Source: a bacterium
GTDB lineage: Bacteria; CLD3; SB21
Assembly (NCBI GenBank): GCA_008933615.1
Contig: WBUR01000002.1
Location: 28,372-92,371, forward strand
Length of the DNA: 64,000 nucleotides
Reading direction: 5' to 3'
Shown here: positions 7,222 through 50,204 of the stretch, one piece after another
How the letters are laid out: every line of letters begins with the position of its first letter
How positions within the stretch are numbered: the stretch's first letter is position 1
The notes under the pieces: model-generated
Databases searched by the model: none
The model's input: only the letters and a program-made list of their open reading frames with translations
What the model was told of the DNA's origin: nothing
Program-made: the position numbers and the translations under genes

Positions 7222-7307
7222 TGTGAATTACCGGCGCATATATGCATCGCACACTACAGAAGCTATTATGAGACTCTACATCTTCACTATTCAAGGAGGA
7301 AATCTAC

Positions 7308-8057: not shown

Positions 8058-8084
8058 ACGATTCAATTCCCATAACGAGGCAAC

Positions 8085-8567
8085 ATGGCGAAAATTAAAA
8101 AACATCGCGTTGGTGTTAATCTTGATATGACCCCCATGGTAGACGTAGCGTTTCTGTTGTTAACTTTTTTTATGCTGGCAACGACGTTCCGACCGCCCGA
8201 AGAAGTATCTGTCACGGTGCCGGATTCTCATTCGCAATTAAAGTTACCGGTTGCAAACGTAATCACGCTGTCTATAACGAAGGAAAAACGAATATGGATG
8301 GACGTGGATGCTCAGGTTGTTCGCGCCAAGATTTTTGGAATAGACTATGCGCAGAAAGCCGGCAAAGAAATTAGTATAGATGAACTAGCTTCGCTGATCA
8401 ATAAAGCGAGGTTGGAGAATCTTGCGATTCGCGGAGCGCAAGGAGCCATGCGTGTTGTCATTAAAGCAGATAAAGACGCGGACTACGACGTCGTGAGTGA
8501 CATCATTGATATATTACAGAAAACCAAGATCACAACGGTAAATTTTATCACCAATCTGGAACGATAA
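8085..8567 (+). CDS. exbD: ExbD/TolR biopolymer transport protein
   Basis: N-terminus ...DMTPMVDVAFLLLTFFMLATTF is the ExbD/TolR signature TM segment. Confidence 0.85.
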   Translation: MAKIKKHRVGVNLDMTPMVDVAFLLLTFFMLATTFRPPEEVSVTVPDSHSQLKLPVANVITLSITKEKRIWMDVDAQVVRAKIFGIDYAQKAGKEISIDELASLINKARLENLAIRGAQGAMRVVIKADKDADYDVVSDIIDILQKTKITTVNFITNLER

Positions 8568-8588
8568 TAAATAGGCGGAGTTTAAATT

Positions 8589-9167
8589 ATGTCTGAAATA
8601 GGAGCGGCACAGCCAAGGTCGCACGGCAAAGGGAAAAAAAGAAAACGACGGCTCGGCGTTCGTCTTGATATGACGCCGATGGTGGACGTAGCTTTTCTTC
8701 TTTTGACTTTTTTTATGTTAACAACGGCCTTTCGTTTGCCGCAAACCATGGAAATCAGCATTCCGGAAGACGATAAAGAAAGCAATCAAGTCAAGATCGC
8801 CGAATCAAATATTTTGCAAGTGCGGGTAACGGATGATAATACGATTTATTGGAATTTGGGAAATAATGCACCTCAAAAGACGGACTTAAACAATTTACGT
8901 CACCTATTTATTGAGCGAAGCGAGAAGAATATTCAAGACGGCAAAGGCGTTACAATTAAGGAGAAATATAAACTGATTATGCTCATCAAAATCGATAAAA
9001 AGGCCAAATACGAACATATGATCAATATTGTCGATGAACTGGATCTTGCGATGGTCTCGCTGAATGAGAAAAATAAGTTAACGGAAAGCGGCAGTAAATT
9101 ATCTCCCCGTTTTGCCTTTGCGCCGCTTACCGATCGGGATCTAACGGAGCTTAAGAAGGCGCCATGA
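8589..9167 (+). CDS. exbD: ExbD/TolR biopolymer transport protein (second paralogue)
   Basis: Repeats the same DMTPMVDVAFLLLTFFMLTTAF motif. Paralogue of the preceding gene. Confidence 0.85.
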   Translation: MSEIGAAQPRSHGKGKKRKRRLGVRLDMTPMVDVAFLLLTFFMLTTAFRLPQTMEISIPEDDKESNQVKIAESNILQVRVTDDNTIYWNLGNNAPQKTDLNNLRHLFIERSEKNIQDGKGVTIKEKYKLIMLIKIDKKAKYEHMINIVDELDLAMVSLNEKNKLTESGSKLSPRFAFAPLTDRDLTELKKAP

Positions 9168-9907
9168 GCAATATCGATGTCATAGATGGATTTGAGAGGG
9201 AAAACTACGGTTCGTATGTACTCAAAAAAGTCTATTCGAAGAACTTAGCAGCCGGATTAATTATCGGCGTGGCGTTGCACATCGGAGGAATCGCTTCCTA
9301 TTATATTTCGAATATCGTGATGCAGGAGGATAGGATAATCACCGTCAAATTCACCGACATTAATGAACTCCAAAATGCCCCGCCGTTACAGGATGCGCCG
9401 CCGCCGCCGACAGTAAAAATAGAAATCCCGGATGTGATCAAACCTGCTATGGGAATGCCTATCATCGTTCCGGATGAGGAGGCGTTGCCGGAATTAACCA
9501 TTCAAACTCAGGAAGAAATCAAAACGGATATTGCATCAAGTACTTTTGGAGATCAGGATGGTGAAATAAGGGTTGATATCAGCGGAGTGATACAGGGGAT
9601 TTCCGGAAATGATGAACCCGGCATGGATGAATTTGTTGTGGTCGAACAAAACCCGGTTCCGCTTGGAAGGCCGAATATCGTCTATCCGGAACTCGCAAAA
9701 AAAGCAGGCCTGGAAGGCAAGGTTGTTGTTAAGGCGCTTATCGACGAGACGGGGAGCGTGACAAAAATTGTTGTGATCGCCGGTGAAGATATTTTTAAAG
9801 ACGCCGCAGTGGCTGCGATCAAGCAAATGAAATTTAAGCCCGCCATCAACGGCAACAGGGCTGTCAAGGTCTGGATTACTTATCCTGTCGTGTTTCGGCT
9901 CAATTGA
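9164..9907 (+). CDS. tonB: TonB-family energy transducer
   Basis: N-terminal TM anchor, a Pro-rich spacer (APPLQDAPPPPTVKIEIP) and a C-terminal TonB domain (…PVYPELAKKAGLEGKVVVKALIDETGSV…KPAINGNRAV…). Start overlaps the upstream stop. Confidence 0.85.
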   Translation: MSNIDVIDGFERENYGSYVLKKVYSKNLAAGLIIGVALHIGGIASYYISNIVMQEDRIITVKFTDINELQNAPPLQDAPPPPTVKIEIPDVIKPAMGMPIIVPDEEALPELTIQTQEEIKTDIASSTFGDQDGEIRVDISGVIQGISGNDEPGMDEFVVVEQNPVPLGRPNIVYPELAKKAGLEGKVVVKALIDETGSVTKIVVIAGEDIFKDAAVAAIKQMKFKPAINGNRAVKVWITYPVVFRLN

Positions 9908-33542: not shown

Positions 33543-33968
33543 ATGATGATTTACAACAAAATAGTTAAAACGGGTATAGTTGCAATAACCATAACTGCAC
33601 TAATAGCGGTATATTTTAGTTCCGGTATGAAAATTTTGTGCTCGGCAAATGCGAGCGAAAGTATGACTTGTTGCAAGTCGGCTGACACTTCAAAAAATAG
33701 TTGCGATTCTCAAGGGCCGAATACTTTATCGCTTCAATCCGCACATAAGTGTCCTTGTCCTTCAATGCAAACGGGGCCTAATCAGAGTTTTGACGAAGTA
33801 TTGCCTAATACTGGAAAAGCAGAGTCAAAATCACAATCTGTTCAATGCACTTCTATTTCCACAGAAATTTACACAAGTTCCATCTCTGAATTAGTTTTGA
33901 CCGGTTATGTACATTCTTATTTATCTGCACATGAACGCCTTTCTCTCCTTCAAACCTTCCTTATTTAA
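33543..33968 (+). CDS. Hypothetical membrane-anchored Cys-rich protein immediately upstream of the metal-efflux operon
   Basis: N-terminal TM helix (GIVAITITALIAVYF), then …MTCCKS…NSCDS…HKCPCPS… Weak RBS; could be spurious. Confidence 0.3.
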   Translation: MMIYNKIVKTGIVAITITALIAVYFSSGMKILCSANASESMTCCKSADTSKNSCDSQGPNTLSLQSAHKCPCPSMQTGPNQSFDEVLPNTGKAESKSQSVQCTSISTEIYTSSISELVLTGYVHSYLSAHERLSLLQTFLI

Positions 33969-34099: not shown

Positions 34100-35377
34100 A
34101 TGTTTCATTCTATAAAAACCACGTTGTTTATTCTACTTGTATCACAGACCGTGTGTGCACAAACGCAAGACGGCTTAAGCCTTAATGAGCTTATTCAAGA
34201 AGCATTAGACAACAACCCGCAGTTACATTCTGCACGCCATCAAGCGGACGCCGCTAAAGCGCAAATCAAACAAGTGACCTCACTGGATGCACCGCAAGTT
34301 GGAATAGAGTTTTATCAAACACCGATTCAATCTTTTCCGATCGCGACAAAGAATAGCATGGAAACCGATTATTTTGTTCAGCAGATGTTTCCGTGGCCCG
34401 GAAAGTTATCCGGTATGGGAAAAATTGCAGAAAATAATGTCGCTATGAAAGAACAGGAATCGAAAGCGCTGGATAAGAAAATCATACGGGATCTTAAATC
34501 GGCGTATTATGAACTGTATCTAGTTCAGCGAAAGATGGAGATCAATGGAGAAAATAAACGCATCATGCAAAAGATCATTGATATTGCCCTTAAACAATAC
34601 GAAGTAGGCGCCGGAAATCAATCCGATATTTTGCGTGCGCAAACTGAATTGACAAAATTGACCAATGAAAGTTTTCTGTTGGAGAGGGAAAAAGGAATTA
34701 CGGAGGCTATGATCAATACATTGATCAGCAGACCAGCAAATCAACCTTTGGGGCGAATTGCAGAATTAGAGATTCATGATGTGAAAGTGGGCTTTGACCC
34801 ATTGGTTGCGATAGCCGAAGATAACCGTGCCGAACTAAAAGCTATGGGTTACAATATTGAGATGTTCAAGTCTGAACAAGCACTCGCGAAGCGCGAATTC
34901 TATCCCGACATCATGGTTCGCGGAATGTATAAGAACATGTCCAATACTTCAAAAGACTTTTGGTCGCTGATGATCGGTTTCAATGTTCCGATTGCGTTTT
35001 GGTCTAAAAATAGATACCAGGGTAAAGTCAATGAATTTGGTAAGCATATCAATCATGCAGAGATGGAATATCGGGATACGAAAAACATGATCGGAAATGA
35101 TATTCAGAATGCTTTGGTCATCATGGAGTCGTCGCGTAAGCAAGCGGATGAAATTAAGCGTCATCTTATTCCACAGGCAGAAGCGACATTAGAAGCAACG
35201 CTGGCGTCGTATCAATCGGGTAAAACATCATTCATCATGGCGCTGGACAGTTACCGGATGTTGTTAATGGCTAAACTGGATTATTCGATGAGCGTAATGA
35301 ATACTGCGGTCAGTGAGGCCCAGTTGGAACAGGCCGTTGGCTTGAGTATGAACGAAATTAAGGAGCGACTCAAATAA
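34100..35377 (+). CDS. TolC-family outer-membrane efflux protein (CusC/CzcC-like)
   Basis: Signal peptide. Two-repeat OEP architecture with conserved …YYELYLVQRKMEI… and …GAGNQSDILRAQTEL… segments. Confidence 0.8.
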   Translation: MFHSIKTTLFILLVSQTVCAQTQDGLSLNELIQEALDNNPQLHSARHQADAAKAQIKQVTSLDAPQVGIEFYQTPIQSFPIATKNSMETDYFVQQMFPWPGKLSGMGKIAENNVAMKEQESKALDKKIIRDLKSAYYELYLVQRKMEINGENKRIMQKIIDIALKQYEVGAGNQSDILRAQTELTKLTNESFLLEREKGITEAMINTLISRPANQPLGRIAELEIHDVKVGFDPLVAIAEDNRAELKAMGYNIEMFKSEQALAKREFYPDIMVRGMYKNMSNTSKDFWSLMIGFNVPIAFWSKNRYQGKVNEFGKHINHAEMEYRDTKNMIGNDIQNALVIMESSRKQADEIKRHLIPQAEATLEATLASYQSGKTSFIMALDSYRMLLMAKLDYSMSVMNTAVSEAQLEQAVGLSMNEIKERLK

Positions 35378-35394: not shown

Positions 35395-38300
35395 ATGATA
35401 GAAAAAATTATTGATTGGAGCAGTAAGAATAGACTAATAGTTATATTTGCGTATTTGATTCTGACAGGATATGGTATATATGCTGTTTTCAATATGCCGG
35501 TCGATGCTATACCTGATTTATCGGAAAACCAGGTTATTATTTTTACGGAGTGGATGGGCCGGTCGCCGCAAATTGTGGAGTCCCAGTTAACATTTCCGAT
35601 CGTATCGTCTTTGCAGGGATTGCCGGATGTCAAAGCGGTTAGAGCGGCATCGATGTTCGGCATGTCCTTCGTCTTTGTAATCTTTGAAGACAATACGGAT
35701 ATTTACTTTGCGCGAACGCGTGTGCTTGAGCGGCTAAGCACGGTTCAAACTACGTTGCCGCCCGGGGTGACGCCGTCATTGGGGCCGGATGGGACGGGCG
35801 TGGGCCATGTATTTTGGTACACGGTCGAAGGAGAGGGTTATGATCTGGGAACCCTGCGTGCCGTGCAGGATTGGTATATTCGATATAAACTTGCTGCCGT
35901 TGATGGGGTAGCCGAAGTTGCCGGAATCGGTGGTTTTGTAAAACAATACCAGGTGGATATAAACCCGCTTCAATTACGCGCTTATAACATTTCAATTTCA
36001 GACGTCGTCAATGCGATCCAACGAAGCAATAATGAAGTGGGCGGCAAGATCATTGAGGCGAGCGACGCAGAATATTTTGTAAGAGGGCAGGGCTATATTC
36101 AATCGGTCGACGATATCGGCAATTCGCTTATAAGAACCGCGCCAAACGGAATTCCTGTTTTGATAAAGAACGTTGCAACCGTGCAGGTTGGCGGAGATAT
36201 CCGCAGAGGCTCTCTGGAAAAAGACGGAAAAGGCCAAGTAGTCGGCGGAATTATTGTCATGCGTAACGGAGAAAACGCTAAAGAGGTCATAGATCGTGTG
36301 AAGGAGAAAATTAATGAGATCTCACCGGGTCTGCCGTTCGGAGTTCAAATCGTTCCTTCCTATGACCGCAGCACACTTATTCGGGATGCTATCGGAACGC
36401 TTGAGCGTGCGCTGGTCGAGGCGGCAATCACCGTTTCAATCATGGTGGCCATATTTCTTCTGCACTTCAGGAGCATTTTGCGAATTATTATCGAAATTCC
36501 TGTTTCTGTGTTATTGTCTTTTATCCTCATGCGGATATTTGGAATCACATCGAACATCATGAGTCTTGGCGGTATCATTTTGGCAATTGGGGTCATTGTT
36601 GATGCTTCCATAGTCATGGTGGAAAATGCATATAGGAATATTGCGCATGCGATAGAAGAAAAAGGGCATTTGAGCGCGGAAGATTACAAAACAATTTCAA
36701 TATCATCTGCCAAGCAAGTCGGGCGGGCGATATTCTTTTCCGAACTCATCATTTTAGTGTCATTCCTGCCCGTATTTTTATTAACAGGACAAGAGGGAAA
36801 ACTATTTACGCCATTGGCATTTACAAAAACGTTTGTGATGATCGCTTCTGCCGTAGTAGTTATTACCCTAATCCCGGTCCTCATGACATTGCTTATGAAG
36901 GGAAAATTCAGGCCTGAAAAACAAAATCCTGTCACGGGCTTCTTCATTTGGATATACGAGCCCGTTATTCACTGGGTATTAAAATATCGCAAGACTACCA
37001 TTGCCATCAATGCCATTGCGTTGATTATTACGATACCGATGATCGTGAAAACAGGTTCTGAATTCATGCCGCCATTGGATGAAGGATCCATTTTGTATAT
37101 GCCGGTTACGCTGCCGAATGCCTCAATTACTGAAGTAAATCGTATCTTGCAGTTGCAGGACCAAATTATTCATACTGTACCGGAAGTTCACCATGTTCTC
37201 GGTAAGGCCGGTCGTGCTGAAACGGCTACCGATAACGCCCCGCTAAGCATGATTGAAACGATTATTGTTCTCAAGCCGAAGGAAGAATGGCGAGCGGGAA
37301 TTACAAAGAAAGATATTATCGCTGAACTGGATCAGAAGTTGCAGATTCCGGGTGTCCGTAACGGGTGGACGCAGCCGATCATCAATAGAATTAACATGCT
37401 CTCAACCGGAGTTCGTACGGATATTGGTTTTAAGATATTCGGCGACAATTTGGATACACTCGAATATTACGCAATTAAAGCAGAGCAACTACTCAAGACC
37501 GTGGATGGAGCGGCGGACGTAGTAGCGGAACGCGTTCAAAACGGATATTATCTCGATATTGACCTTAAACGCGAAGCGTTAGCCCGCTATGGCGTCAATA
37601 TAGCCGATATTCAAGACATCATAGAGACGGCCATTGGCGGACAAAATTTAGGTATTGTACTGCAGGAAAGAATGAGATTTCCTATTCGGATGCGATACGA
37701 ACGCGAAATTCGCGATAATATTGAAGAATTGAAAAATCTCATAATACCTGTGAATGTTTCCGGAGGAATGAGCAATACCGGCGGCATGAGTTCAGCAGGC
37801 GTAGCTTCTCAGAGCATGGTAAGTCGAAAAATGGGTAGTTCGCCGGGTATGCAAAATACTAACACGGATAAAACTTATGAAGCATCTTTGACAAACGGGT
37901 TTTCACTCACAACTTCCTCCGGTGATACAAAAGTCTATCTGCCTCTTTCATATTTGGCCGACATAAAGACGTTGACAGGCCCACCCATGATCAATAGCGA
38001 GAACGGTATGCTGCGGTCTATTGTTTTTATGAATACGCGAGGGCGCGATATGGGCAGCGTGATGGAGGACGCTAAAAATGTGATCACTGAAAAATTGGAC
38101 CTTCCGACAGGGTATACCTACACATGGAGCGGACAATACGAACATAAGGTCAGAGCACAAAGAACTTTGACCATCATTATGCCGGTCGTATTCTTACTGA
38201 TATTTTTCATGCTTTACTATACACTGCATGATTACAAAGAAGCGGGCGTCGTCATGTTGTCCGTGCCTTTTGCGCTGATTGGTGGTATGTATATGATTTA

Positions 38301-38745
38301 TTTTTTGGATTACAATTTTTCAGTTGCAGTCTGGGTCGGATTTATTGCTCTGTATGGGATTGCCACACAAACCGGCGTCATCATGGTAGTCTATTTGCAT
38401 GAGGCTTTGGACCGGCGTATTCGTGATCATGAAAAGGGACTGCGGGGCCCTGTCACCGTGAAGGATATTTATGACGCGACAGTGGAAGGTTCGGTCTTGC
38501 GGCTTCGCCCCAAACTCATGACCGTTAGTACAGCCATGATAGGACTCATTCCGGTTATGTGGGCAACCGGGGCCGGATCGGATGTCATGAAACCATTAAC
38601 GGCGCCTATGATCGGCGGGTTGTTTACATCGGCGGTTCATGTGCTGGTCGTTACGCCAATTTTGTTTGTCATTATGAAGGAACTCGCGCTGAAAAAAGGA
38701 AAACTCGAGAAATCTAAAATGGCGGATTGGATGAGAGAAGGATGA
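35395..38745 (+). CDS. cusA: Heavy-metal efflux RND transporter, CusA/CzcA (HME) family, with a Met/Ser/Gly-rich periplasmic insertion
   Basis: The N-terminus aligns closely with E. coli CusA (…PVDAIPDLSENQVIIFTEWMGRSPQIVESQLTFPI…IFEDNTDIYFARTRVLERL…GPDGTGVGHVFWY…). 12-TM RND topology. Insert at about aa 785-845. Confidence 0.9.
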   Translation: MIEKIIDWSSKNRLIVIFAYLILTGYGIYAVFNMPVDAIPDLSENQVIIFTEWMGRSPQIVESQLTFPIVSSLQGLPDVKAVRAASMFGMSFVFVIFEDNTDIYFARTRVLERLSTVQTTLPPGVTPSLGPDGTGVGHVFWYTVEGEGYDLGTLRAVQDWYIRYKLAAVDGVAEVAGIGGFVKQYQVDINPLQLRAYNISISDVVNAIQRSNNEVGGKIIEASDAEYFVRGQGYIQSVDDIGNSLIRTAPNGIPVLIKNVATVQVGGDIRRGSLEKDGKGQVVGGIIVMRNGENAKEVIDRVKEKINEISPGLPFGVQIVPSYDRSTLIRDAIGTLERALVEAAITVSIMVAIFLLHFRSILRIIIEIPVSVLLSFILMRIFGITSNIMSLGGIILAIGVIVDASIVMVENAYRNIAHAIEEKGHLSAEDYKTISISSAKQVGRAIFFSELIILVSFLPVFLLTGQEGKLFTPLAFTKTFVMIASAVVVITLIPVLMTLLMKGKFRPEKQNPVTGFFIWIYEPVIHWVLKYRKTTIAINAIALIITIPMIVKTGSEFMPPLDEGSILYMPVTLPNASITEVNRILQLQDQIIHTVPEVHHVLGKAGRAETATDNAPLSMIETIIVLKPKEEWRAGITKKDIIAELDQKLQIPGVRNGWTQPIINRINMLSTGVRTDIGFKIFGDNLDTLEYYAIKAEQLLKTVDGAADVVAERVQNGYYLDIDLKREALARYGVNIADIQDIIETAIGGQNLGIVLQERMRFPIRMRYEREIRDNIEELKNLIIPVNVSGGMSNTGGMSSAGVASQSMVSRKMGSSPGMQNTNTDKTYEASLTNGFSLTTSSGDTKVYLPLSYLADIKTLTGPPMINSENGMLRSIVFMNTRGRDMGSVMEDAKNVITEKLDLPTGYTYTWSGQYEHKVRAQRTLTIIMPVVFLLIFFMLYYTLHDYKEAGVVMLSVPFALIGGMYMIYFLDYNFSVAVWVGFIALYGIATQTGVIMVVYLHEALDRRIRDHEKGLRGPVTVKDIYDATVEGSVLRLRPKLMTVSTAMIGLIPVMWATGAGSDVMKPLTAPMIGGLFTSAVHVLVVTPILFVIMKELALKKGKLEKSKMADWMREG

Positions 38746-38790: not shown

Positions 38791-40086
38791 ATGAAATATG
38801 TTTTGGTTTTATCAATACTGATAGTGGCGGGGATTGCCGGTTGTTCAAATAAAGAGTCGAGTGGTGATGAAAAAGAGAAAACAAAAGAAATCTATTATTG
38901 TCCGATGCATCCGGAAGTTACTTCAGAAAAGCCCGGGGTATGCCCGATTTGCAATATGGATCTGGTAAAAAAGGTTGATGAGAAAAGGGCGGTAATGGAG
39001 GACATGCCAGGAATGATTAATCTGAGTTTACAAAAACAAGTTCTGGCAAATGTCTCTACGCTCAAAATTCAAAAGGAACATTTTTTAAAGGAACTTGTGT
39101 CCTATAGTTATCTCGATTTTGCAGAGCAAAATAGAAGGCTTATTTCTGCAAGATTTAACGGACGGATTGAAAAGCTGTTTGTCGATAAGACAGGTGACTA
39201 CATAAGCCGAGGACAGCCTTTATTTGAGATTTATAGTCCGGATTTGCTGGAAGCGCAGAACGAATATCTCATTGCACTTGAAAATACAGCCTCGATCCGC
39301 AAAACATCGTTTAATGACGCTGCCAGTACTAACACTTTAATCAAATCTTCACGCAAACGGCTTGAATTATATGGGTTGACGGATGAACAAATTGCGACCC
39401 TCGATTCAAGTCGTGAGTTACAATACACTATGACATATTATTCGCCTATTAGCGGAACGGTTATTGAAAAAAAGATTCAGGAGGGAGCATATGTAAATGA
39501 AGGCACGCTTCTTTATGATATCGCCGATATGTCCACCTTATGGGGTATTGCGGAAATTTATGAAAAAGATTTGTCTTTGATTAAAGTTGGCAACAGGGTC
39601 AAGCTTCGTCTTCCGGCATATCCGGATGAGGCTTTTGAAGGCTCTGTAAATTTTATATATCCTGTGGTCAACTCGCAAACACGCACGGTAAAAGTTCGCT
39701 CTGAATTTTCTAATGTAAATCACAAACTCAGGCCGCAGATGTATGGGGAGATTGTCGTTCAACAAGACATGGGAAAACAACTGCTGATTTCTCAGGATGC
39801 GGTTCTGTTTACAGGAAAACGTCAAATTGTATGGGTGAAAACGGCAGAAGACCATTTTGAGTCCAAGGAAGTGACTTTGGGAATTAAGAATGACGGGAAA
39901 TATCAAGTGTTATCCGGATTAAAAGAAGGCGATGAAGTAGCCGTAACCGGCGGATTTCTCATTGACTCCGAAAGCCAGCTTCGCAGCGGAAAGGCTACGG
40001 GACATCAACATGAAGGCATGAAAATGGACGATGATTCAAAGGATCAAAAAAAGGAAACAAATGAAAGCCCAGAACACAAACACTAG
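38791..40086 (+). CDS. cusB: Membrane-fusion (periplasmic adaptor) protein CusB/CzcB-like with an N-terminal heavy-metal-binding domain
   Basis: Lipobox IAGC. YYCPMHPEV…GVCPICNMDL is an HMBD/YHS-like Cys motif. The HlyD-like body …RLISARFNGRIEKLFVDKTGDYISRGQPLFEIYSPDLLEAQNEYL… follows. His-rich C-terminal tail …HQHEGMKMDD…EHKH. Confidence 0.85.
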   Translation: MKYVLVLSILIVAGIAGCSNKESSGDEKEKTKEIYYCPMHPEVTSEKPGVCPICNMDLVKKVDEKRAVMEDMPGMINLSLQKQVLANVSTLKIQKEHFLKELVSYSYLDFAEQNRRLISARFNGRIEKLFVDKTGDYISRGQPLFEIYSPDLLEAQNEYLIALENTASIRKTSFNDAASTNTLIKSSRKRLELYGLTDEQIATLDSSRELQYTMTYYSPISGTVIEKKIQEGAYVNEGTLLYDIADMSTLWGIAEIYEKDLSLIKVGNRVKLRLPAYPDEAFEGSVNFIYPVVNSQTRTVKVRSEFSNVNHKLRPQMYGEIVVQQDMGKQLLISQDAVLFTGKRQIVWVKTAEDHFESKEVTLGIKNDGKYQVLSGLKEGDEVAVTGGFLIDSESQLRSGKATGHQHEGMKMDDDSKDQKKETNESPEHKH

Positions 40087-40104: not shown

Positions 40105-40476
40105 ATGAAAAGGACCCATAAACATAAAAATTACAACAATCGCATTTTATTGATTTCAGCTATTGGACTTCTTGTCTTTGCAATTGTTTCTTTGCTAAAC
40201 CTTGAGTTGGATGTAAAAGAGAACGTCGGGATATCAACGTCCAAAGCGACATCATCCGATGTTAGGGTAACCAAAATTGCATCGAAATTTATATGCAGTT
40301 GTGGAAGTTGTGGCGGTGAACCACTTGATTTATGTTCATGTGAGCATGCAGTTAAAGTGCGACAATATATCCAAGAGTATTTGTTAAATAATAAAAGCGA
40401 GGATCAGATTGTCGCCTTAATCAGCAAATCATACGGCGGATTGAAACCTCAATTTGAAAAAAACACGATAAAATGA
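40105..40476 (+). CDS. CcmH/NrfF-like domain protein with an expanded Cys cluster, membrane-anchored
   Basis: N-terminal signal anchor. …FICSCGSCGGEPLDLCSCEHAVKVRQYIQEYLLNNKSEDQIVALISKSYGG aligns with E. coli CcmH …LRCPKCQNN…DLRQKVYELMQEGKSKKEIVDYMVARYGNFV. RBS AAGGAGA lies 9 nt upstream and 18 bp after the cusB stop. Confidence 0.55.
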   Translation: MKRTHKHKNYNNRILLISAIGLLVFAIVSLLNLELDVKENVGISTSKATSSDVRVTKIASKFICSCGSCGGEPLDLCSCEHAVKVRQYIQEYLLNNKSEDQIVALISKSYGGLKPQFEKNTIK

Positions 40477-40535
40477 AATGTGTCTGAAAGTCCGAACACT
40501 TAACTAATTAATTAACGTACTTAAAGGGAGTATAC

Positions 40536-41054
40536 ATGCAAAATGTCCATCCTATGTTAATTCACTTTCCAATCGCTTTATTTCTGACAGCGATGATCTT
40601 TGACCTCGTCTCTTTTGCCCGTAGAAATGAATCTTTTGAAAATATGGCTTCTAAACTATTTATTCTCAGCGCTATTGCATTTATAGCGTCCGCTATCACT
40701 GGACTTTTAGCAGAAAACAGTGTGTCGCACAGCGAAGAAGCGCATCACATTATGGAAGACCATAAACTCTTTCAATTGATTGCTACAGGCATTTCTGTTT
40801 TTATTGCTTTACTAATATTTTTTGTCAAAAAAAGAATGCAATTGCTAAGATTAGTATTAACTCTTCTCGGTGCAGGATTCATGACGTACGGCTCGTACCT
40901 GGGTGGCGAACTTGTCTATAGGTTTGGAATTGGAACAAATGTGCAAGTAATAAAACCTGATAGCAATAGACAGAATGAGCAACCCATACAAGAAGTCAAA
41001 AAAGACTCTACAGAAACTGAAGAGCACTCTGATACCCACGAGCACAAACACTAA
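40536..41054 (+). CDS. 4-TM membrane protein, DUF2231-like, with a His-rich C-terminal tail
   Basis: MLIHFPIALFLTAMIFDL… plus three further helices. Tail …TEEHSDTHEHKH. Confidence 0.5.
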   Translation: MQNVHPMLIHFPIALFLTAMIFDLVSFARRNESFENMASKLFILSAIAFIASAITGLLAENSVSHSEEAHHIMEDHKLFQLIATGISVFIALLIFFVKKRMQLLRLVLTLLGAGFMTYGSYLGGELVYRFGIGTNVQVIKPDSNRQNEQPIQEVKKDSTETEEHSDTHEHKH

Positions 41055-41081
41055 TTAATTTTTAAAAAGAAAGAAACTAAC

Positions 41082-41666
41082 ATGAAGACATATGACATTA
41101 AGACTTATATAGTGTTGATTATCAGCGTCGCCGCGGTAACTCTGAACGGATGCATGATGATGGCAATGGGTGGCATGACTCATGACTCGCATTCTGATCG
41201 CGGAATACATCAATCTCAATCTGTAGAAATTCAAAAAGGCGATTTAAAAGCTATCTTGACCGTGCCTGCCCTCGTTATGGGGAAGGAGTCGGAAATTGTC
41301 ATGAAAGTATATGACCGCCATGGAATGGCCGTATCCGGCGCTAAAGTTACTATGCAATTTGATGCTGATCATGAGATGAAGAAGGATCACAATCACGGTT
41401 CTTTCGGTGGAGAAGAAAGGACTGCCGTAGAGACGGCGGGAAAGGGCACGTATAGCCTAAAACATAGCTTTGATCATCACGGTGCCATGCGTGTTACGGC
41501 GAAGATTTCCTATCAGGAGAATTCAGAGCCGCTTGTTCTGGCTATGACCACTGGGGTGTCACACATGCAAGAAAATCACAGCGGCCGCTCCATGACGCCC
41601 ATGATTATTGCAGGCGCCGCTCTGATGGCCGTGATGATGATTTTTATGATAGGAAGATACAATTAG
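41082..41666 (+). CDS. His/Met-rich lipoprotein with a FixH/YtkA-like beta-sandwich region and a C-terminal TM anchor
   Basis: Lipobox LNGC followed by MMMAMGGMTHDSHSD. His clusters DADHEMKKDHNHG and HSFDHHG. C-terminal helix IIAGAALMAVMMIFMIG. Fold assignment is tentative. Confidence 0.55.
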   Translation: MKTYDIKTYIVLIISVAAVTLNGCMMMAMGGMTHDSHSDRGIHQSQSVEIQKGDLKAILTVPALVMGKESEIVMKVYDRHGMAVSGAKVTMQFDADHEMKKDHNHGSFGGEERTAVETAGKGTYSLKHSFDHHGAMRVTAKISYQENSEPLVLAMTTGVSHMQENHSGRSMTPMIIAGAALMAVMMIFMIGRYN

Positions 41667-41699
41667 CAAATCATTATAAACTTAAAAAGGATTATTGCT

Positions 41700-42287
41700 A
41701 TGAAAACAATGAAAATCTCAACAATGGTACTTCTTGGACTTCTATGGGTCATGAGTTGCAGCAATAACGATGATATGATGCAGGCACTGCGGATTAGCCC
41801 AAAAGATGGCGAAACGGGTGTTGCCTTGAATAAAAACATCGAATTGGATTTTGATACACCTATGGCGCGTTCAGTTGTTCAAAGAAATTTCCACATGATG
41901 ACAACACAAAAAATGCAGACGATTGCAGATTCCATGATGGTTTATATGGTAATGATGGGGATGATGACACACGGCGATTCAGCGACAATTTATGACGGAA
42001 TGATGCGAATGATGGACAACAATACGATGCGCGGAACCTTTGTTTGGAACTCGGATTCGACCCGGTGCACGTTTGATCCTGATTCGCTTATGATGCCCGG
42101 TACACAATACCGAATGCACATGGGCCAAGAAATGATGACGATGACCGGTATGATGCAAGGTGACGGTATGATGTCGGATGACAATCATGGAATGATGGGC
42201 AATGCCGGCGGTATGATGCATGGGGATATGATGATTAATTTTACTACCGGCAACAGTATGATGAAATCAGGCAACCTGAAAAATTAG
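41700..42287 (+). CDS. Extremely methionine-rich lipoprotein: an Ig-like (Big_5-type) domain plus an MM-dipeptide repeat tail
   Basis: Lipobox VMSC. …ISPKDGETGVALNKNIELDFDTPM… resembles a bacterial Ig-like domain. About 40 of 195 residues are Met, mostly as MM pairs (SMMVYMVMMGMMTHG, DGMMRMMDNN, GMMQGDGMMSDDNHGMMGNAGGMMHGDMM). Confidence 0.65.
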   Translation: MKTMKISTMVLLGLLWVMSCSNNDDMMQALRISPKDGETGVALNKNIELDFDTPMARSVVQRNFHMMTTQKMQTIADSMMVYMVMMGMMTHGDSATIYDGMMRMMDNNTMRGTFVWNSDSTRCTFDPDSLMMPGTQYRMHMGQEMMTMTGMMQGDGMMSDDNHGMMGNAGGMMHGDMMINFTTGNSMMKSGNLKN

Positions 42288-42297
42288 GAGTAGAACT

Positions 42298-42660
42298 ATG
42301 TTAGTTCATAATAGAATTTTTATAGCGGCTATATTCAGTCTGATCTTTGCGACCGGATGTACCAGCCCCATGTTGACCATATATAAGGAAAATCCTCTGT
42401 CCAAAGAAGTAATAATCATTGCCGGCAACACTGAAAACATGACCATCGGCAAAACCTACATTGTCTATCGAAACGAAATCCATACCACCTTGCCTTCATC
42501 CGGCGCTCATGCAGGACACGGTGGTCATGATATGGGAGGATCCACCCTTTCAAGAAAGATGGTGGGTCTTATACTTATTACAACAATTTTGGATTCTAAA
42601 ACCGCCTCTGCTCAAGTCGTAAGTGGTGACGTGCAGAATGGAGATATAGCCGAGGAATAG
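42298..42660 (+). CDS. Small His-rich lipoprotein (hypothetical)
   Basis: Lipobox FATGC. Motif SSGAHAGHGGHDMGG. Last gene of the tightly packed operon. Confidence 0.45.
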   Translation: MLVHNRIFIAAIFSLIFATGCTSPMLTIYKENPLSKEVIIIAGNTENMTIGKTYIVYRNEIHTTLPSSGAHAGHGGHDMGGSTLSRKMVGLILITTILDSKTASAQVVSGDVQNGDIAEE

Positions 42661-42767
42661 TCGGATAAAATCTGTCAACACAATAATTTCTCTTGAGGTA
42701 TATTCTTTAAAGTATTTCTGAAATTGATTCTAACTCAATTCTCATTAATTAAACCAAGGAGTGATTT

Positions 42768-43121
42768 ATGAAAACCAGGATGTCTTTTTCTGTGTTAGTG
42801 ATGTTAATTTTGTGTCTGAATGTCAAAGCTTGGGCACAGGAATCAAAAGAAGCCGAAATTATATCGAAAATAGTTACCATTGATGTTCCTACCATTAAAT
42901 GCGGTTCATGCGTTAAAACCGTATCGAATGCTCTCAAACAATTGAAGGGAGTGGAAGAAGTCACTGTGGATAAAAAATCTAAAACGGCAGTTGTAAAATA
43001 CGATCCATCAAAACTAAAAGTAAATGACTTAGAAACGGCGATTTCAAAATCAGGTTATGACGCCAACGAGGTAAAAAGAGACAAAAAAGCGTTTGACGAA
43101 TTGGACTCATGTTGCCGCTAA
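42768..43121 (+). CDS. Secreted heavy-metal-associated (HMA) domain protein with a non-canonical CxxC motif
   Basis: Signal peptide (…NVKAWAQ). Ferredoxin-like HMA pattern …IVTIDVPTIKCGSCVKTVSNALKQLKGVEEVTVDKKSKTAVVKYD…LETAISKSGYDA…. C-terminus ends …DSCCR. Confidence 0.65.
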   Translation: MKTRMSFSVLVMLILCLNVKAWAQESKEAEIISKIVTIDVPTIKCGSCVKTVSNALKQLKGVEEVTVDKKSKTAVVKYDPSKLKVNDLETAISKSGYDANEVKRDKKAFDELDSCCR

Positions 43122-44559: not shown

Positions 44560-46272
44560 TCATTCAAGCAGATGCGGGGCATTCCAGAAAAACTGGGTTA
44601 GGCCTTTGTTTGTGCCAAACCATACATAATCGCCGTCAATCAATATTTTTTTTACGCGCGCCCCGGCCAATCCGTCCTGGATTCCGTAATAGATCCACTT
44701 TTGCTTACGTTTGATGTATCGTAGGACGCCGTTGTTTGTCCCGATCCATAAATTATTTTCATCGGATGCCGCGTCATTGACGCCGGGCAATAAATACTGG
44801 GTATTGACTGGAATAGACTCCCAAAACATCCTTACCTTATTGTATCTGATAACGCTTAAGTCGGATGCAAAATAGATGTATGTTGAATCCTCCGTTAAAC
44901 CCCTGATCTGTTGATCAAGAAATTGCGAAGGACTGACAGTAAATCCCACCGCATTAAAATGAGAAAATGTATAGTCGGACAACGATACCGCATAGATGCC
45001 GTTGCTTGTGCCAAGCCAGATCGTCTTATTGAAGATTAATATTTTAAAGATAGAGACGTTAAATAATGCAGGAATTTCAATTTTAGAGATTACATATTCT
45101 TTCTGCTTGGGCCTAACTATGTTTAGCCCCTGCTGTGTTCCTACATACAAGTTGTTGCCTTCCGTTGCTATGGAATATACCGATGGATGATACAAACCGC
45201 TATACGTGCCATACGTTGTCCAATAGTCCATTTTGTTGATCCGTTGAACCAAACCTTCATCCGTTCCTATCCAAATATTGTTCTTATCGCTTATCATGCA
45301 GTTCACATTTTGCAGTCGCAAGCCTGACCTGAACCCGGAATCGTAATATTTAAAATCATCCTTTTCCTGATTCCATTCTGTGACTCCGGAAACAAAGGAG
45401 GAATAGGTTCGTCCATTTGATGAACGAATATTCCCGCCGGTCCACATAGTAATGTCGTCAAAGCACATAGCGGACACGTCCTCCATTGCAAGCCCGTAGT
45501 TTAAGGGTTCCGCTAAATAGGAAACGCTGTTTGCCTTCCAGACGCCGGCGCCATAAGTCGTGAGCCATAAATTACCAAGATGATCGTATACAGAAGAAGT
45601 GACAGGAAATTTACGAAATTCATTATCCGTAAAAACCTGTTCGTAATCGTCAAATTGAAAACCGGTTTCGGTGTTCGTAAAAATATGAGGCAATTTTCCT
45701 TGCGGCACCGCTCGCAAACCGTACCAGGCAACTACGGTTGTTTCGAGTAACGATTCTCGCGCAAACCCAAATAGTGAATTACTGGAAGATAAATAGCCTT
45801 TATTAGTTTGAAGCCAAACTTTGCTGCCTTCAAAGCCGATGGAGTGAATTTCTTCATCCAAAAGAATGCCGATTTGAAAATATGTTGCAGTTGTGAATTG
45901 TTGAGACACGGGGTTGTAGATTTGCAGACCCTCTCTTGACGCAACCCAAAGAAAGTCGTTTTGCTTTTCAACGGCGACAACTTTGATGTAATTATCCAAT
46001 AAGCCGTTGCTCGTGGTCAATGGATAATTGAACTGTTTTTTTGTAAAATCATAGCGTAAGACGCCGCCTAAGGTTCCGACATACGCAATTTTATAACTGA
46101 CTGCAATTGAAGTGCTGTAACGGGTCGCAGAAAAAGTAATCCAGTCGCCCGGCCTGTAGTTGAGTTGATAGTATATTTTTTCTACATCTTTTTTGGTTTG
46201 GGAATAAAGAAAGGCCGTAGAATTGGCAACTAGGAGCCCAAAAACGACACAATACTTAAGCATAGTTTTCAT
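44560..46272 (-). CDS. Secreted beta-propeller sensor-domain protein (two-component-regulator propeller / Y_Y_Y-like repeats), no kinase domain
   Basis: Signal peptide. Repeated …W.GT..GL..Y… blades (e.g. LWVASREGLQIYN, IWIGTDEGLVQRI, IWLGTSNGIYAVS, LWIGTNNGVLRYI, VWFGTNKGLTQF). Confidence 0.6.
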   Translation of the reverse strand: MKTMLKYCVVFGLLVANSTAFLYSQTKKDVEKIYYQLNYRPGDWITFSATRYSTSIAVSYKIAYVGTLGGVLRYDFTKKQFNYPLTTSNGLLDNYIKVVAVEKQNDFLWVASREGLQIYNPVSQQFTTATYFQIGILLDEEIHSIGFEGSKVWLQTNKGYLSSSNSLFGFARESLLETTVVAWYGLRAVPQGKLPHIFTNTETGFQFDDYEQVFTDNEFRKFPVTSSVYDHLGNLWLTTYGAGVWKANSVSYLAEPLNYGLAMEDVSAMCFDDITMWTGGNIRSSNGRTYSSFVSGVTEWNQEKDDFKYYDSGFRSGLRLQNVNCMISDKNNIWIGTDEGLVQRINKMDYWTTYGTYSGLYHPSVYSIATEGNNLYVGTQQGLNIVRPKQKEYVISKIEIPALFNVSIFKILIFNKTIWLGTSNGIYAVSLSDYTFSHFNAVGFTVSPSQFLDQQIRGLTEDSTYIYFASDLSVIRYNKVRMFWESIPVNTQYLLPGVNDAASDENNLWIGTNNGVLRYIKRKQKWIYYGIQDGLAGARVKKILIDGDYVWFGTNKGLTQFFWNAPHLLE

Positions 46273-50133: not shown

Positions 50134-50204
50134 CTGGAATGCAGGGATTCGAACCCCGATTAATGGATCCAGAGTCCATTGTCCTACCATTGGACGACAT
50201 TCCA
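50134..50204 (-). tRNA. tRNA-Gln (anticodon CUG)
   Basis: Hand-folded. Acceptor TGGAATG/CATTCCA gives a U1:A72 pair, typical of tRNA-Gln. D-arm GTCC-AATGGTA-GGAC. Anticodon arm ATGGA-CTCTGGA-TCCAT, with CTG at positions 34-36. T-arm CGGGG-TTCGAAT-CCCTG. Discriminator G. CCA is not encoded. Position 37 is G, which is atypical, so the isotype needs confirmation. Confidence 0.75.

What the first reader, a model, noticed from the sequence alone, without database searches (positions are those of the whole stretch)
37750..37930. Met/Ser/Gly-rich low-complexity insertion of about 60 aa in a periplasmic loop of CusA
Relative to the E. coli CusA pattern, this CusA carries an insert: …VNVSGGMSNTGGMSSAGVASQSMVSRKMGSSPGMQNTNTDKTYEASLTNGFSLTTSSGDTKVYLPL… It is rich in Met, Ser, Gly and Thr and predicted disordered. 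It lies in the periplasmic docking/porter region before TM7-8 resumes with …DIKTLTGPPMINSENGMLRS….

The repeated GGMS/GMQ units could act as an intrinsic Cu(I)-capturing tentacle. Functionally this would be analogous to the Met-rich N-terminus of CusB. It makes the protein about 70 aa longer than typical CusA.
Basis: partly seen in the sequence, partly recalled or inferred. Interest (0 to 1): 0.5.

Follow-up and report, generated by a model that had tools for sequence, protein, structure and literature searches.

The report
Methionine-rich floppy loop crowning a copper pump
This copper/silver efflux pump carries a real, lineage-conserved, about 60-residue disordered loop studded with conserved methionines at the very top of the pump; similar methionine/glycine-rich loops occur at the same spot in copper pumps of several other phyla, which points to an undescribed metal-handling add-on at the exit of the pump rather than at its entrance.

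Summary
The 1116-aa CusA (window 35395-38745, +) has a 62-aa insert (aa 785-846, nt 37747-37932) that replaces the 5-residue turn of E. coli CusA 789-793.

It is not an artefact. There is no DNA repeat, an independent assembly is identical, and all 121 close homologues (Ignavibacteria/Kapabacteria-type MAGs) carry it at 52-74 aa.

A good AlphaFold model (pLDDT 81.5; TM 0.95 to CusA of the CusBA complex) is disordered only at 790-843, between two retained beta-strands. The site aligns with AcrB G796/Q797. That is the tip of beta-hairpin 2 of the DC funnel subdomain, at the crown of the pump where the adaptor ring sits.

The loop drifts fast (37% identity against 83% in the flanks) but always keeps 3-7 Met, and Met positions 792, about 813 and 819 are conserved.

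Across 50%-identity representatives, about 23% of pumps with the three-Met site carry inserts of at least 15 aa here, against 1 of 52 without that site. These inserts hold 6% Met; inserts at other sites hold 1.3%. Lineages named so far include Myxococcota, Poribacteria, Planctomycetota and Zixibacteria.

My reading is a thioether "brush" for Cu(I)/Ag(I) at the exit funnel. An entry-side capture tentacle is less likely. This is a new variant of a known pump, and I found no description of it in the literature searched.

The parts
35395..38745 (+). cusA: HME-RND Cu(I)/Ag(I) efflux permease, 1116 aa
   Evidence: TIGR00914 scores 1091.6 bits against a cut-off of 701. E=5.8e-284 to E. coli CusA 3K07. 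AF2 model has pLDDT 81.5 and TM 0.95 to 4DNT/3NE5 chain A. M573/M623/M672, the transmembrane Met pairs and D405 are retained.
37747..37932 (+). The insert, aa 785-846 (62 aa). It replaces the 5-residue hairpin turn of E. coli CusA 789-793.
   Evidence: Unaligned gap in the HMMER, MAFFT and BLAST-anchor alignments.
37762..37923 (+). Predicted disordered core of the insert, aa 790-843
   Evidence: This is the only internal segment with pLDDT below 50 in an otherwise confident model, and DSSP assigns it coil.
37768..37851 (+). Met-bearing stretch, aa 792-819 (M792, M798, M808, M813, M819)
   Evidence: M792 is kept in 88% and M819 in 97% of 120 homologues. A Met lies within 3 columns of M813 in 92%. 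Other residues in aa 790-825 are kept in 16% on average.
37894..37911 (+). Semi-conserved motif N-G-F-S-L-T (aa 834-839) near the C-terminal end of the insert
   Evidence: S837 and L838 are invariant in the 20-sequence alignment A1. Column conservation is 0.9 in 121 sequences. AF2 still predicts this stretch as coil.
37741..37755 (+). Ascending strand of DC beta-hairpin 2 (aa 783-787, LIIPV)
   Evidence: DSSP strand E783-787. It aligns with CusA 'LPILT' and AcrB 'WYVRA'.
37930..37944 (+). Descending strand of DC beta-hairpin 2 (aa 846-850, KVYLP)
   Evidence: DSSP strand E846-850. It aligns with CusA 'QQITL' and AcrB 'QMVPF'.
34100..35377 (+). Outer-membrane factor (TolC/CusC-like), 425 aa, immediately upstream
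   Evidence: Pfam OEP 1e-43. TolC-family NCBIfam hits.
38791..40086 (+). cusB: periplasmic adaptor, 431 aa, with an N-terminal HMBD metal-binding domain and a VMEDMPGM motif
   Evidence: HlyD_D23 1.7e-72, HMBD 1.2e-13. CusB NF007303 3e-52. Sequence.

Best explanation
The gene encodes a genuine Cu(I)/Ag(I) CusA pump. The tip of its crown hairpin (beta-hairpin 2 of the DC funnel subdomain) has been opened and extended by a flexible loop of about 55-60 residues. The loop is uncharged, rich in Ser, Asn and Gly, and carries 3-7 methionines, of which two to three positions are conserved.

Shown here: the position of the insert, its predicted disorder, its conservation across a clade, the conservation of its Met residues, and the recurrence of Met/Gly-rich inserts at this exact site in pumps that keep the three-Met site, in several phyla.

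Inferred: a trimer carries three such loops. They emerge at the rim of the exit funnel, inside or against the ring of CusB beta-barrel domains. There the thioethers would act as a low-affinity, multivalent Cu(I)/Ag(I) 'brush'. The brush would extend the pump's methionine relay beyond the funnel and receive ions released from the extrusion channel. It would keep the soft ions ligated while they pass into the CusB/outer-membrane duct, and it would disfavour back-flow. In short, I read it as an exit-side hand-off device. I think an entry-side capture arm less likely.
For: Position. The insert lies between CusA K793/Q794, which align with AcrB G796/Q797. The flanking strands are retained, and 790-843 is the only disordered internal segment. 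The model superposes on CusA of the CusBA complex with TM 0.95 and rmsd 2.3 A. In AcrAB-TolC the two crown hairpins are grasped by the adaptor beta-barrels (PMC6975555) and were cross-linked to TolC (PMC4446572). In CusA the ion is proposed to leave the three-Met site upward through the extrusion channel to the CusB and CusC channels (PMC8092243; PMC7558416).

Selection on Met. All 121 clade members have 3-7 Met in the insert (7.5% against 3.9% in the rest of the protein), and the insert has no His, Cys or Trp and only about 5% charged residues. Pairwise identity is 37% in the insert against 83% in the flanks. Met is by far the best-conserved residue type there (0.49 against 0.16; M792 88%, M819 97%).

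Recurrence. At this same site 23 of 100 representatives with the three-Met site have inserts of at least 15 aa, against 1 of 52 without it (Fisher P=3e-4). The inserts fall in at least five separate clades of a neighbour-joining tree. Many contain GMGG(M) runs; one Poribacteria protein has 179 aa with 18% Met. Of 119 relatives of the Myxococcota/Zixibacteria group, 107 carry inserts of 21-126 aa with 8% Met.

Site specificity. Inserts of at least 20 aa elsewhere in the same proteins have 1.3% Met against 6.0% here (P=2.6e-7) and look like folded domains. The filler residues track genome composition (S/N/T here, G/A/P in GC-rich lineages) while Met stays constant.

Entry-side capture is already provided for. 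CusB has an HMBD domain and an MxxMxxM motif.

Met-rich flexible regions are established weak, multivalent Cu(I) binders (PMC11840665).
Against: No metal-binding or transport data exist for any of these loops.

The geometry relative to CusB and the outer-membrane factor is inferred from homologous complexes and was not modelled. The prediction covers a monomer only.

Met density here is modest (5 of 62). Spacing is mostly 5-11 residues, so the loop does not follow the classic MxM or MxxM pattern (0.6 MxxM per sequence). His and Asp, which often accompany Met in known Cu regions, are absent.

Some inserts at the same site in other lineages have no Met at all (P0237, P0152, P0156, P0201), so the site can host loops with other roles.

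The statistical tests are not corrected for phylogeny, and the tree is a rough neighbour-joining tree.

Three 60-residue loops in or near the adaptor interface could equally well serve assembly.
Confidence: 0.42

Rival explanations
1. Entry-side capture tentacle. The loop reaches out into the periplasm, collects Cu(I) and feeds it to the PC1/PC2 cleft, doing the job of CusF or the CusB N-terminus.
For: Met enrichment and conserved Met positions. No CusF homologue was found among the ten neighbouring ORFs scanned. A 62-aa loop could in principle span the roughly 40-50 A down to the cleft (inference from length).
Against: The insertion point is the crown hairpin tip at the top of the funnel domain. 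In assembled pumps the adaptor ring grasps this hairpin (PMC6975555), so the loop would have to thread through or around CusB. CusB in this operon keeps its own HMBD domain and Met motif. Other accessory metal proteins are also present: an HMA protein, a YtkA-like protein and a protein with 21% Met.
Confidence: 0.15
2. Assembly or docking element. The loop tunes or stabilises contact between CusA and its adaptor or outer-membrane channel, for example as a gasket, a spacer or a specificity determinant, and the methionines are secondary.
For: The site is the hairpin that gives the largest buried adaptor-pump interface in AcrAB-TolC, and deleting that hairpin loses TolC (PMC6975555; PMC4446572). 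The semi-conserved N-G-F-S-L-T motif could be a short linear contact motif. Some lineages have Met-free inserts here.
Against: Disordered, fast-drifting, low-complexity sequence (37% identity) is unusual for a specific interface. This idea does not explain why Met is the conserved and recurrent feature, nor why inserts are nearly confined to pumps with the three-Met site. Insert length varies from 11 to 179 aa among lineages.
Confidence: 0.2
3. Neutral filler. This is a tolerated low-complexity expansion at a permissive surface turn, with no function.
For: The sequence is low-complexity, poorly conserved and variable in length. The turn is solvent-exposed, and the family has other insertion hot-spots.
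Against: Length is held within 52-74 aa in 121 of 121 clade members down to 58% overall identity. Met positions are conserved while their neighbours drift. Met enrichment is specific to this site. The feature recurs in at least five clades.
Confidence: 0.15
4. Sequencing or assembly artefact, or in-frame repeat expansion.
For: None found.
Against: There is no tandem repeat. An independent assembly has the identical sequence. More than 120 homologues from many projects carry the insert.
Confidence: 0.01

Closest known systems
E. coli CusA (PDB 3K07, 3NE5, 4DNT), the Cu(I)/Ag(I) HME-RND pump
   Same: Collinear over its full length at 40% identity. The model superposes with TM 0.95 and rmsd 2.3 A. 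It keeps the three-Met site M573/M623/M672, the transmembrane Met pairs, D405 and the charged relay residues, and the operon includes an adaptor and an outer-membrane factor.
   Different: It has a 62-aa disordered Met-bearing loop where E. coli has the 5-residue turn 789-793. It lacks the E. coli M271/M755 funnel pair (I and N here) and M403. That pair is specific to E. coli among the representatives. Gene order is OMF-cusA-cusB, and no cusF was found.
AcrB DC beta-hairpin 2 (tip D795-G796-Q797), the crown hairpin that contacts the adaptor beta-barrel and was cross-linked to TolC
   Same: The insertion point aligns exactly with this turn, and both flanking strands are retained.
   Different: In AcrB and E. 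coli CusA it is a tight turn. Here it is opened into a loop of about 55 disordered residues.
N-terminal Met site of CusB (M21, M36, M38; numbering from my own knowledge) and the CusF chaperone
   Same: Both use methionine thioethers in a flexible periplasmic segment of the same efflux system, with about three conserved Met (PMC7558416).
   Different: CusB's site is at the entrance side next to the PC1/PC2 cleft. This loop is at the exit crown. CusB in this operon keeps its own sites.
Met-rich insert of the multicopper oxidase CueO
   Same: It is a Met-rich, partly disordered insertion into a conserved fold that provides several weak Cu(I) sites (PMC11840665).
   Different: CueO's region has 14 Met plus His and Asp and gates an enzyme active site. 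This loop has 3-7 Met and no His, and it sits on a transporter.
Disordered His/Met-rich N-terminal domain of the outer-membrane copper channel PcoB
   Same: It is a poorly conserved intrinsically disordered region attached to a copper-export component. It tolerates changes in sequence and size yet is needed for function (PMC12509749).
   Different: PcoB's region is terminal and its function depends on His. This one is an internal loop of the inner-membrane pump and has no His.

Membership tests
CusA/CzcA heavy-metal efflux RND permeases (TIGR00914), Cu(I)/Ag(I) subgroup | Score above the curated family cut-off | tested here: met
   1091.6 bits against a cut-off of 701.45.
CusA/CzcA heavy-metal efflux RND permeases (TIGR00914), Cu(I)/Ag(I) subgroup | Full-length RND architecture and fold (12 TM helices, two large periplasmic loops with PN1/PN2/DN and PC1/PC2/DC) | tested here: met
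   Query 1-784 and 847-1094 align to CusA 1-788 and 794-1038. The AF2 model has pLDDT 81.5 and TM 0.95 to 4DNT_A and 3NE5_A.
CusA/CzcA heavy-metal efflux RND permeases (TIGR00914), Cu(I)/Ag(I) subgroup | Periplasmic three-methionine Cu(I)/Ag(I) site (M573, M623, M672) | tested here: met
   All three are retained.
CusA/CzcA heavy-metal efflux RND permeases (TIGR00914), Cu(I)/Ag(I) subgroup | Transmembrane Met pairs, proton-relay D405 and charged residues R83, E567, D617, E625, R669, K678 | tested here: met
   M391, M1009, M486, M410, M501, D405, R83, E567, D617, E625 and R669 are retained. K678 is R and M403 is I.
CusA/CzcA heavy-metal efflux RND permeases (TIGR00914), Cu(I)/Ag(I) subgroup | Funnel Met pair M271-M755 of the E. 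coli relay | tested here: not met
   The residues are I and N here. Among 100 representatives with the three-Met site, only E. coli CusA has M/M, so this pair does not define the family.
CusA/CzcA heavy-metal efflux RND permeases (TIGR00914), Cu(I)/Ag(I) subgroup | Encoded together with a periplasmic adaptor and an outer-membrane factor | tested here: met
   OEP protein at 34100-35377 and CusB-type adaptor at 38791-40086.
CusA/CzcA heavy-metal efflux RND permeases (TIGR00914), Cu(I)/Ag(I) subgroup | Proton-driven export of Cu(I)/Ag(I) | not testable with these tools
   This needs transport or resistance assays.
Met-rich Cu(I)-binding disordered regions (CueO insert, PcoB N-terminal domain, CusB N-terminus, Ctr1 Mets motifs) | Met enrichment over suitable backgrounds | tested here: met
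   7.5% in the insert against 3.9% in the rest of the protein across 121 sequences. 6.0% against 1.3% for inserts at other sites, P=2.6e-7, not corrected for phylogeny.
Met-rich Cu(I)-binding disordered regions (CueO insert, PcoB N-terminal domain, CusB N-terminus, Ctr1 Mets motifs) | Met positions conserved while the surrounding sequence drifts | tested here: met
   M792 is kept in 88% and M819 in 97%. A Met lies near 813 in 92%. Other residues are kept in 16% on average.
Met-rich Cu(I)-binding disordered regions (CueO insert, PcoB N-terminal domain, CusB N-terminus, Ctr1 Mets motifs) | Clustered MxM, MxxM or MxxxM motifs | tested here: inconclusive
   The Ignavibacteria-type loops average 0.6 MxxM and 0.4 MxxxM per sequence, and spacing here is 5-11 residues. 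The Myxococcota, Poribacteria and other loops do have GMGGMGG runs.
Met-rich Cu(I)-binding disordered regions (CueO insert, PcoB N-terminal domain, CusB N-terminus, Ctr1 Mets motifs) | Accompanying His or Asp ligands | tested here: not met
   There is no His in any of the 121 clade inserts, and D+E is about 3%.
Met-rich Cu(I)-binding disordered regions (CueO insert, PcoB N-terminal domain, CusB N-terminus, Ctr1 Mets motifs) | Intrinsic disorder or flexibility | tested here: met
   pLDDT is about 30 and DSSP gives coil for 790-843 in an otherwise confident model. This is the lowest-entropy segment of the protein.
Met-rich Cu(I)-binding disordered regions (CueO insert, PcoB N-terminal domain, CusB N-terminus, Ctr1 Mets motifs) | Measured Cu(I)/Ag(I) binding | not testable with these tools
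   This needs peptide or protein biochemistry.
RND crown hairpin (beta-hairpin 2 of the DC funnel subdomain) | Homologous position and retained flanking strands | tested here: met
   The site aligns with AcrB G796/Q797 and CusA K793/Q794. Strands 783-787 and 846-850 are predicted.
RND crown hairpin (beta-hairpin 2 of the DC funnel subdomain) | Contact with the adaptor beta-barrel or the outer-membrane factor in the assembled pump | not testable with these tools
   This is known for AcrAB-TolC from the literature (PMC6975555, PMC4446572). No complex could be modelled here.

The most novel reading that the evidence does not exclude
Disordered Met/Gly-rich loops at the crown hairpin would be a convergently evolved module of Cu(I)/Ag(I) RND pumps. 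They occur in Ignavibacteria/Kapabacteria, Myxococcota, Poribacteria, Planctomycetota and Zixibacteria at 11-179 aa per protomer. Three loops per trimer would thread into the adaptor and outer-membrane duct and form a thioether 'wire' or brush along which soft metal ions hop. A disordered polypeptide phase inside an efflux conduit would then conduct the ions, loosely comparable to FG repeats in the nuclear pore. This would add an unrecognised fourth stage to the methionine relay of Cus-type pumps.
Probability: 0.2. Interest if true: 0.75.

Novelty: new variant of a known kind. Interest (0 to 1): 0.55.

Why it matters
How Cu(I) travels from the CusA funnel through CusB and CusC to the outside is the least understood step of the Cus mechanism. 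No structure of the full CusA3B6C3 complex exists (PMC7558416).

A conserved, Met-bearing flexible loop placed exactly at that hand-off point recurs in several phyla and only in pumps with the three-Met site. This gives a natural handle on the question: the loops can be deleted, swapped or grafted into E. coli CusA. Related inserts occur in cultured Myxococcota (isolate records for Vulgatibacter sp. and Myxococcus sp. AM011).

The finding also shows that the crown hairpin, regarded as an assembly element in multidrug pumps, tolerates large insertions. It adds a case to the small set of functional Met-rich disordered regions in copper homeostasis (CueO, PcoB).

If the loops turn out to be inert, the result is still useful for annotation. 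CusA proteins of about 1110-1300 aa in these phyla are intact proteins, not mis-assemblies.

Tried and rejected
- The first AlphaFold run used a shallow 20-sequence alignment (A1) and gave an unusable model (pLDDT 41.8). I repeated it with 93 sequences spanning 42-94% identity (A3), which worked.
- I suspected that the many 1430-1480-aa HME-RND representatives carried a giant insert at this site. They have the normal 5-residue turn, and the extra ~400 aa is a C-terminal OMF-like extension.
- I tested whether the loop compensates for loss of the E. coli M271/M755 funnel pair. I rejected this because the pair is absent from essentially all representatives, with or without an insert.
- Tandem-repeat search on the DNA found nothing.
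- The Rfam scan of the window found one tRNA far away.
- I looked for Met-rich inserts at the other crown hairpin (DN). There is only one small case, P0250 'SMESRMEHL'. The two larger inserts after residue 239 are in a different loop.
- Literature searches for any description of this insert found nothing relevant.
- The primary CusBA structure papers (PMC3078058, PMC3423576) and the AcrB hairpin-deletion paper (PMC3984920) are not held. A search for CusA-CusB contact residues found nothing. The statements about CusB contacts therefore rest on reviews and on the AcrAB-TolC analogy.
- I considered O-glycosylation of the Ser/Thr-rich loop. No D-[ST]-[AILVMT] motif (the Bacteroidota consensus, from my own knowledge) is present in the insert, by reading of the sequence.
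Full report
**1. What is in the sequence**

The finding lies inside one long ORF, window 35395-38745 on the + strand, 1116 aa. No ORF of 80 aa or more on either strand overlaps 37750-37930 apart from this one.

The protein is an unambiguous heavy-metal RND permease:
- TIGR00914 (CusA/CzcA) scores 1091.6 bits against a cut-off of 701.
- The best solved relatives are E. coli CusA entries, E=5.8e-284.

HMMER splits the match into query 1-784 = CusA 1-788 and query 847-1094 = CusA 794-1038 (chain numbering minus the tag). Query residues 785-846 therefore have no counterpart.

The 62 residues are PVNVSGGMSNTGGMSSAGVASQSMVSRKMGSSPGMQNTNTDKTYEASLTNGFSLTTSSGDTK. Composition is S13 G9 T8 N5 M5, with no His, Cys or Trp and a net charge of +1. 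The segment contains the lowest-complexity 25-mer of the protein.

**2. It is not an artefact**

- Tandem Repeats Finder finds no repeat in 37600-38100.
- GC content of the insert (0.457) equals that of the gene (0.453).
- An independent MAG contig (L001, JAEUSK010000057.1) encodes the identical protein.
- The 120 best database homologues, 75-94% identical and from many projects, are all 1096-1161 aa long.
- Anchoring on the flanks shows that every one has an insert of 52-74 aa here.

In species-representative genomes, every relative shown with at least 58% identity carries the insert. The MAGs are labelled Ignavibacteriales, Melioribacter, Ignavibacterium, Kapaibacterium, 'Chlorobiota' and 'Bacteroidota'. 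Relatives at 48% identity or less lack it (Chromatiales, Nitrospirae, Elusimicrobia, Acidobacteriota, Gammaproteobacteria). The exception is an 11-residue 'GMGGGAEMESP' in an Akkermansiaceae MAG.

**3. Where it sits in the pump**

A MAFFT alignment with E. coli CusA and AcrB puts the insert between CusA K793/Q794 and AcrB G796/Q797. This is the turn of the hairpin LPILTPMK|QQITL in CusA and WYVRAADG|QMVPF in AcrB.

That hairpin is beta-hairpin 2 of the DC funnel (docking) subdomain, one of the two hairpins per protomer at the crown of RND pumps.

The first AlphaFold attempt with a shallow alignment failed (pLDDT 41.8). A second used 93 sequences that included distant relatives (A3). It gave a good model with mean pLDDT 81.5 and pTM 0.76. 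The only internal segment below pLDDT 50 is 790-843, predicted as coil. It is flanked by strands 783-787 and 846-850.

The model superposes on CusA of the CusBA complex (4DNT_A, 3NE5_A) with TM 0.95 and rmsd 2.3 A. The fold is therefore intact, and the hairpin has simply been opened at its tip.

What the literature says about this element:
- In AcrAB-TolC the adaptor's beta-barrel domains grasp the two crown hairpins 'in a pincer-like fashion', forming the largest adaptor-pump interface (PMC6975555).
- The hairpins were cross-linked to TolC, and deleting them loses TolC from the complex (PMC4446572).
- Six CusB molecules form an inverted funnel over the CusA trimer and make a continuous conduit (PMC7558416).

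The insert is therefore at the exit crown of the pump. It is not at the PC1/PC2 entrance cleft.

**4. The pump itself is a copper/silver type**

These residues are retained:
- the three-Met site M573/M623/M672
- M391, M1009, M486, M410 and M501
- the proton-relay D405
- R83, E567, D617, E625 and R669

K678 is Arg and M403 is Ile. The E. coli funnel pair M271/M755 is I/N here, but that pair is peculiar to E. coli among 100 representatives with the three-Met site. I draw no conclusion from its absence.

The gene is flanked by an outer-membrane factor (34100-35377) and a CusB-type adaptor (38791-40086).

**5. The methionines look selected**

Within the clade of 121 sequences the insert evolves fast. 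Mean pairwise identity is 37%, against 83% for 100 residues on each side. Its character is nevertheless constant: S 26%, N 11%, G 11%, M 7.5%, only about 5% charged residues and no His, Cys or Trp. Every sequence has 3-7 Met, with a median of 5.

Met is by far the best-conserved residue type in the variable part:

| Position | Kept in homologues |
|---|---|
| M792 | 88% |
| M819 | 97% |
| Met within three columns of M813 | 92% |
| Other residues, aa 790-825 (mean) | 16% |

A second conserved element, N-[DG]-F-S-L-T near the C-terminal end (S837 and L838 invariant in A1), is also present. AlphaFold still predicts it as coil.

**6. The same site carries Met/Gly-rich loops in other phyla**

A search of 1.84 billion representatives clustered at 50% identity returned 150 HME-RND clusters. 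Anchoring on the flanks shows that the usual spacing at this site is 5 residues. About 30 of 138 clusters have inserts of 11-179 aa.

Many of these contain GMGG(M) runs:
- P0128: 179 aa, 18% Met, 24% Gly
- P0134, P0221, P0158, P0132 and P0121 are similar

A few are free of Met or contain His (P0237, P0152, P0156, P0201, P0180).

| Comparison | At this site | Control | Test |
|---|---|---|---|
| Inserts of at least 15 aa | 23 of 100 representatives with the three-Met site | 1 of 52 without it | Fisher P=3e-4 |
| Met content of inserts of at least 20 aa | 6.0% (n=23) | 1.3% at other sites (n=104) | Mann-Whitney P=2.6e-7 |
| Hydrophobic residues | 9% | 34% | |
| Charged residues | 10.5% | 22% | |
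| G/S/A/P/T/N/Q | 72% | 40% | |

The control sites lie after E. coli residues 145, 510, 553 and 638. Their inserts have the composition of folded domains.

On a rough neighbour-joining tree the insert-bearing sequences fall in at least five separate clades, each with insert-free neighbours.

Names attached to these clusters are Candidatus Poribacteria (P0128), Bradymonadaceae (P0221) and Planctomycetota (P0175 cluster).

A profile search seeded with the distant insert-bearing sequences returned 119 further proteins:
- 107 of them have inserts of 21-126 aa at this site.
- Pooled composition is G24 A16 S12 P10 M8.
- They include records named Vulgatibacter sp. and Myxococcus sp. AM011 (isolate genomes), Kofleriaceae and Myxococcales MAGs, and a Zixibacteria genome.
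- The Myxococcus gene lies in an OEP-CusB(HMBD)-CusA operon.

The filler residues follow genome composition: S/N/T in the AT-rich Ignavibacteria-type sequences and G/A/P in the GC-rich ones. Met is the constant.

These tests are not corrected for phylogeny, and I cannot tell repeated gain from ancient gain followed by many losses. Either history implies that Met is maintained.

**7. How it most likely works**

*Shown.* The insert is a clade-conserved disordered loop at the tip of the DC crown hairpin. Its Met positions are conserved. Met/Gly-rich loops recur at this site in pumps with the three-Met site.

*Established elsewhere.* Flexible Met-rich regions bind Cu(I) weakly but multivalently through thioethers, and a tris-Met environment is highly favourable (PMC11840665). 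Poorly conserved disordered metal-binding regions can be essential for a copper exporter (PcoB, PMC12509749).

*Inferred.* Three loops per trimer emerge at the funnel rim within or against the CusB ring. They act as an exit-side thioether brush that takes Cu(I)/Ag(I) from the extrusion channel, keeps it ligated on the way into the CusB/OMF duct and opposes back-flow. I give this specific mechanism about 0.4. I give the broader statement, that the loop binds soft metal and contributes to pump function, about 0.6.

**8. Rivals**

CusB here also has its own HMBD domain and a VMEDMPGM motif, and the operon encodes further periplasmic metal proteins. It is not excluded for a pump without a bound adaptor.
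- *Assembly or gasket role.* This is plausible because the hairpin is an adaptor contact, some lineages have Met-free inserts and a short conserved motif exists. It does not explain the Met pattern or the restriction to pumps with the three-Met site.
- *Neutral filler.* Length constraint, Met conservation and site-specific enrichment argue against it.
- *Artefact.* Excluded.

**9. Comparison with what is known, and novelty**

The protein is a member of the CusA family by every sequence and fold criterion I could test. The loop works most like the Met-rich regions of CueO, PcoB and the CusB N-terminus. It differs from them in position (an internal loop of the inner-membrane pump, at its exit), in lacking His and Asp, and in its wider Met spacing.

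Four full-text searches found no description of such an insert in CusA or any HME-RND pump. The library does not cover most subscription journals, so this is absence of evidence only.

I rate it a new variant of a known kind. Interest is moderate to fairly high for people working on RND assembly and copper efflux, because it touches the unresolved CusA-to-CusC hand-off and is directly testable. No function has yet been demonstrated.

Noticed in passing
window 41700-42287 (+): A 195-aa lipoprotein-like protein with a Big_5 Ig-like domain and 21% methionine (many MM doublets), in the same gene string as cusAB. Small ORFs with 20-26% Met lie downstream of cusAB in about 7 of 36 related loci (L010, L013, L027, L029, L031, L034, L042). 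It could be a periplasmic Cu(I) sponge or chaperone that stands in for CusF.
   Followed up: partly
window 38791-40086 (+): The CusB adaptor has an N-terminal HMBD domain (YYCPMHP...CPICNM) followed by VMEDMPGM (MxxMxxM). Entry-side metal capture therefore seems to be provided by the adaptor. The Myxococcus sp. AM011 operon has the same HMBD-CusB arrangement.
   Followed up: partly
window 40105-43121 (+): A string of small accessory genes follows cusB: a CcmH-like protein with a Cys-rich motif (40105-40476), a DUF2231 membrane protein (40536-41054), a YtkA-like protein with 10% Met and 6% His (41082-41666), an unknown 120-aa lipoprotein-like ORF (42298-42660) and a secreted HMA-domain protein (42768-43121). 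No CusF homologue was detected.
   Followed up: partly
window 33543-33968 (+): A 141-aa ORF just upstream of the OMF gene has no family match and is rich in Cys (CCKSADTSKNSC..., HKCPCPS). It might be a small metal-binding or regulatory protein of the island.
   Followed up: no
representatives P0217, P0218, P0225, P0266, P0188 and many other 1430-1480-aa HME-RND proteins: These have the normal 5-residue turn at the crown hairpin. They also carry a ~400-aa C-terminal extension that begins with a signal-peptide-like stretch and looks like an outer-membrane factor. They are either RND-OMF fusions or read-through gene calls.
   Followed up: partly
HME-RND representatives, positions equivalent to E. 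coli CusA residues 510 and 638: There are two other recurrent insertion hot-spots: after residue 510 (25 clusters, median 61 aa) and after residue 638 (41 clusters, median 101 aa). Their composition looks like folded domains and Met is low (1.4-1.7%). I did not examine what they are.
   Followed up: no
L074 (Akkermansiaceae MAG, JAIPKB010000221.1), match 5970-9263: This CusA homologue has a miniature 11-residue insert, GMGGGAEMESP, at the same hairpin tip. It may be an early or reduced form of the Met/Gly loop.
   Followed up: no
window 50134-50204 (-): One tRNA gene is the only Rfam match in the 64-kb window.
   Followed up: no
window 44563-46272 (-): A 570-aa protein with Reg_prop and PorZ-like beta-propeller repeats suggests a type IX secretion-related protein and fits an FCB-group (Bacteroidota-related) origin of the window.
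   Followed up: no
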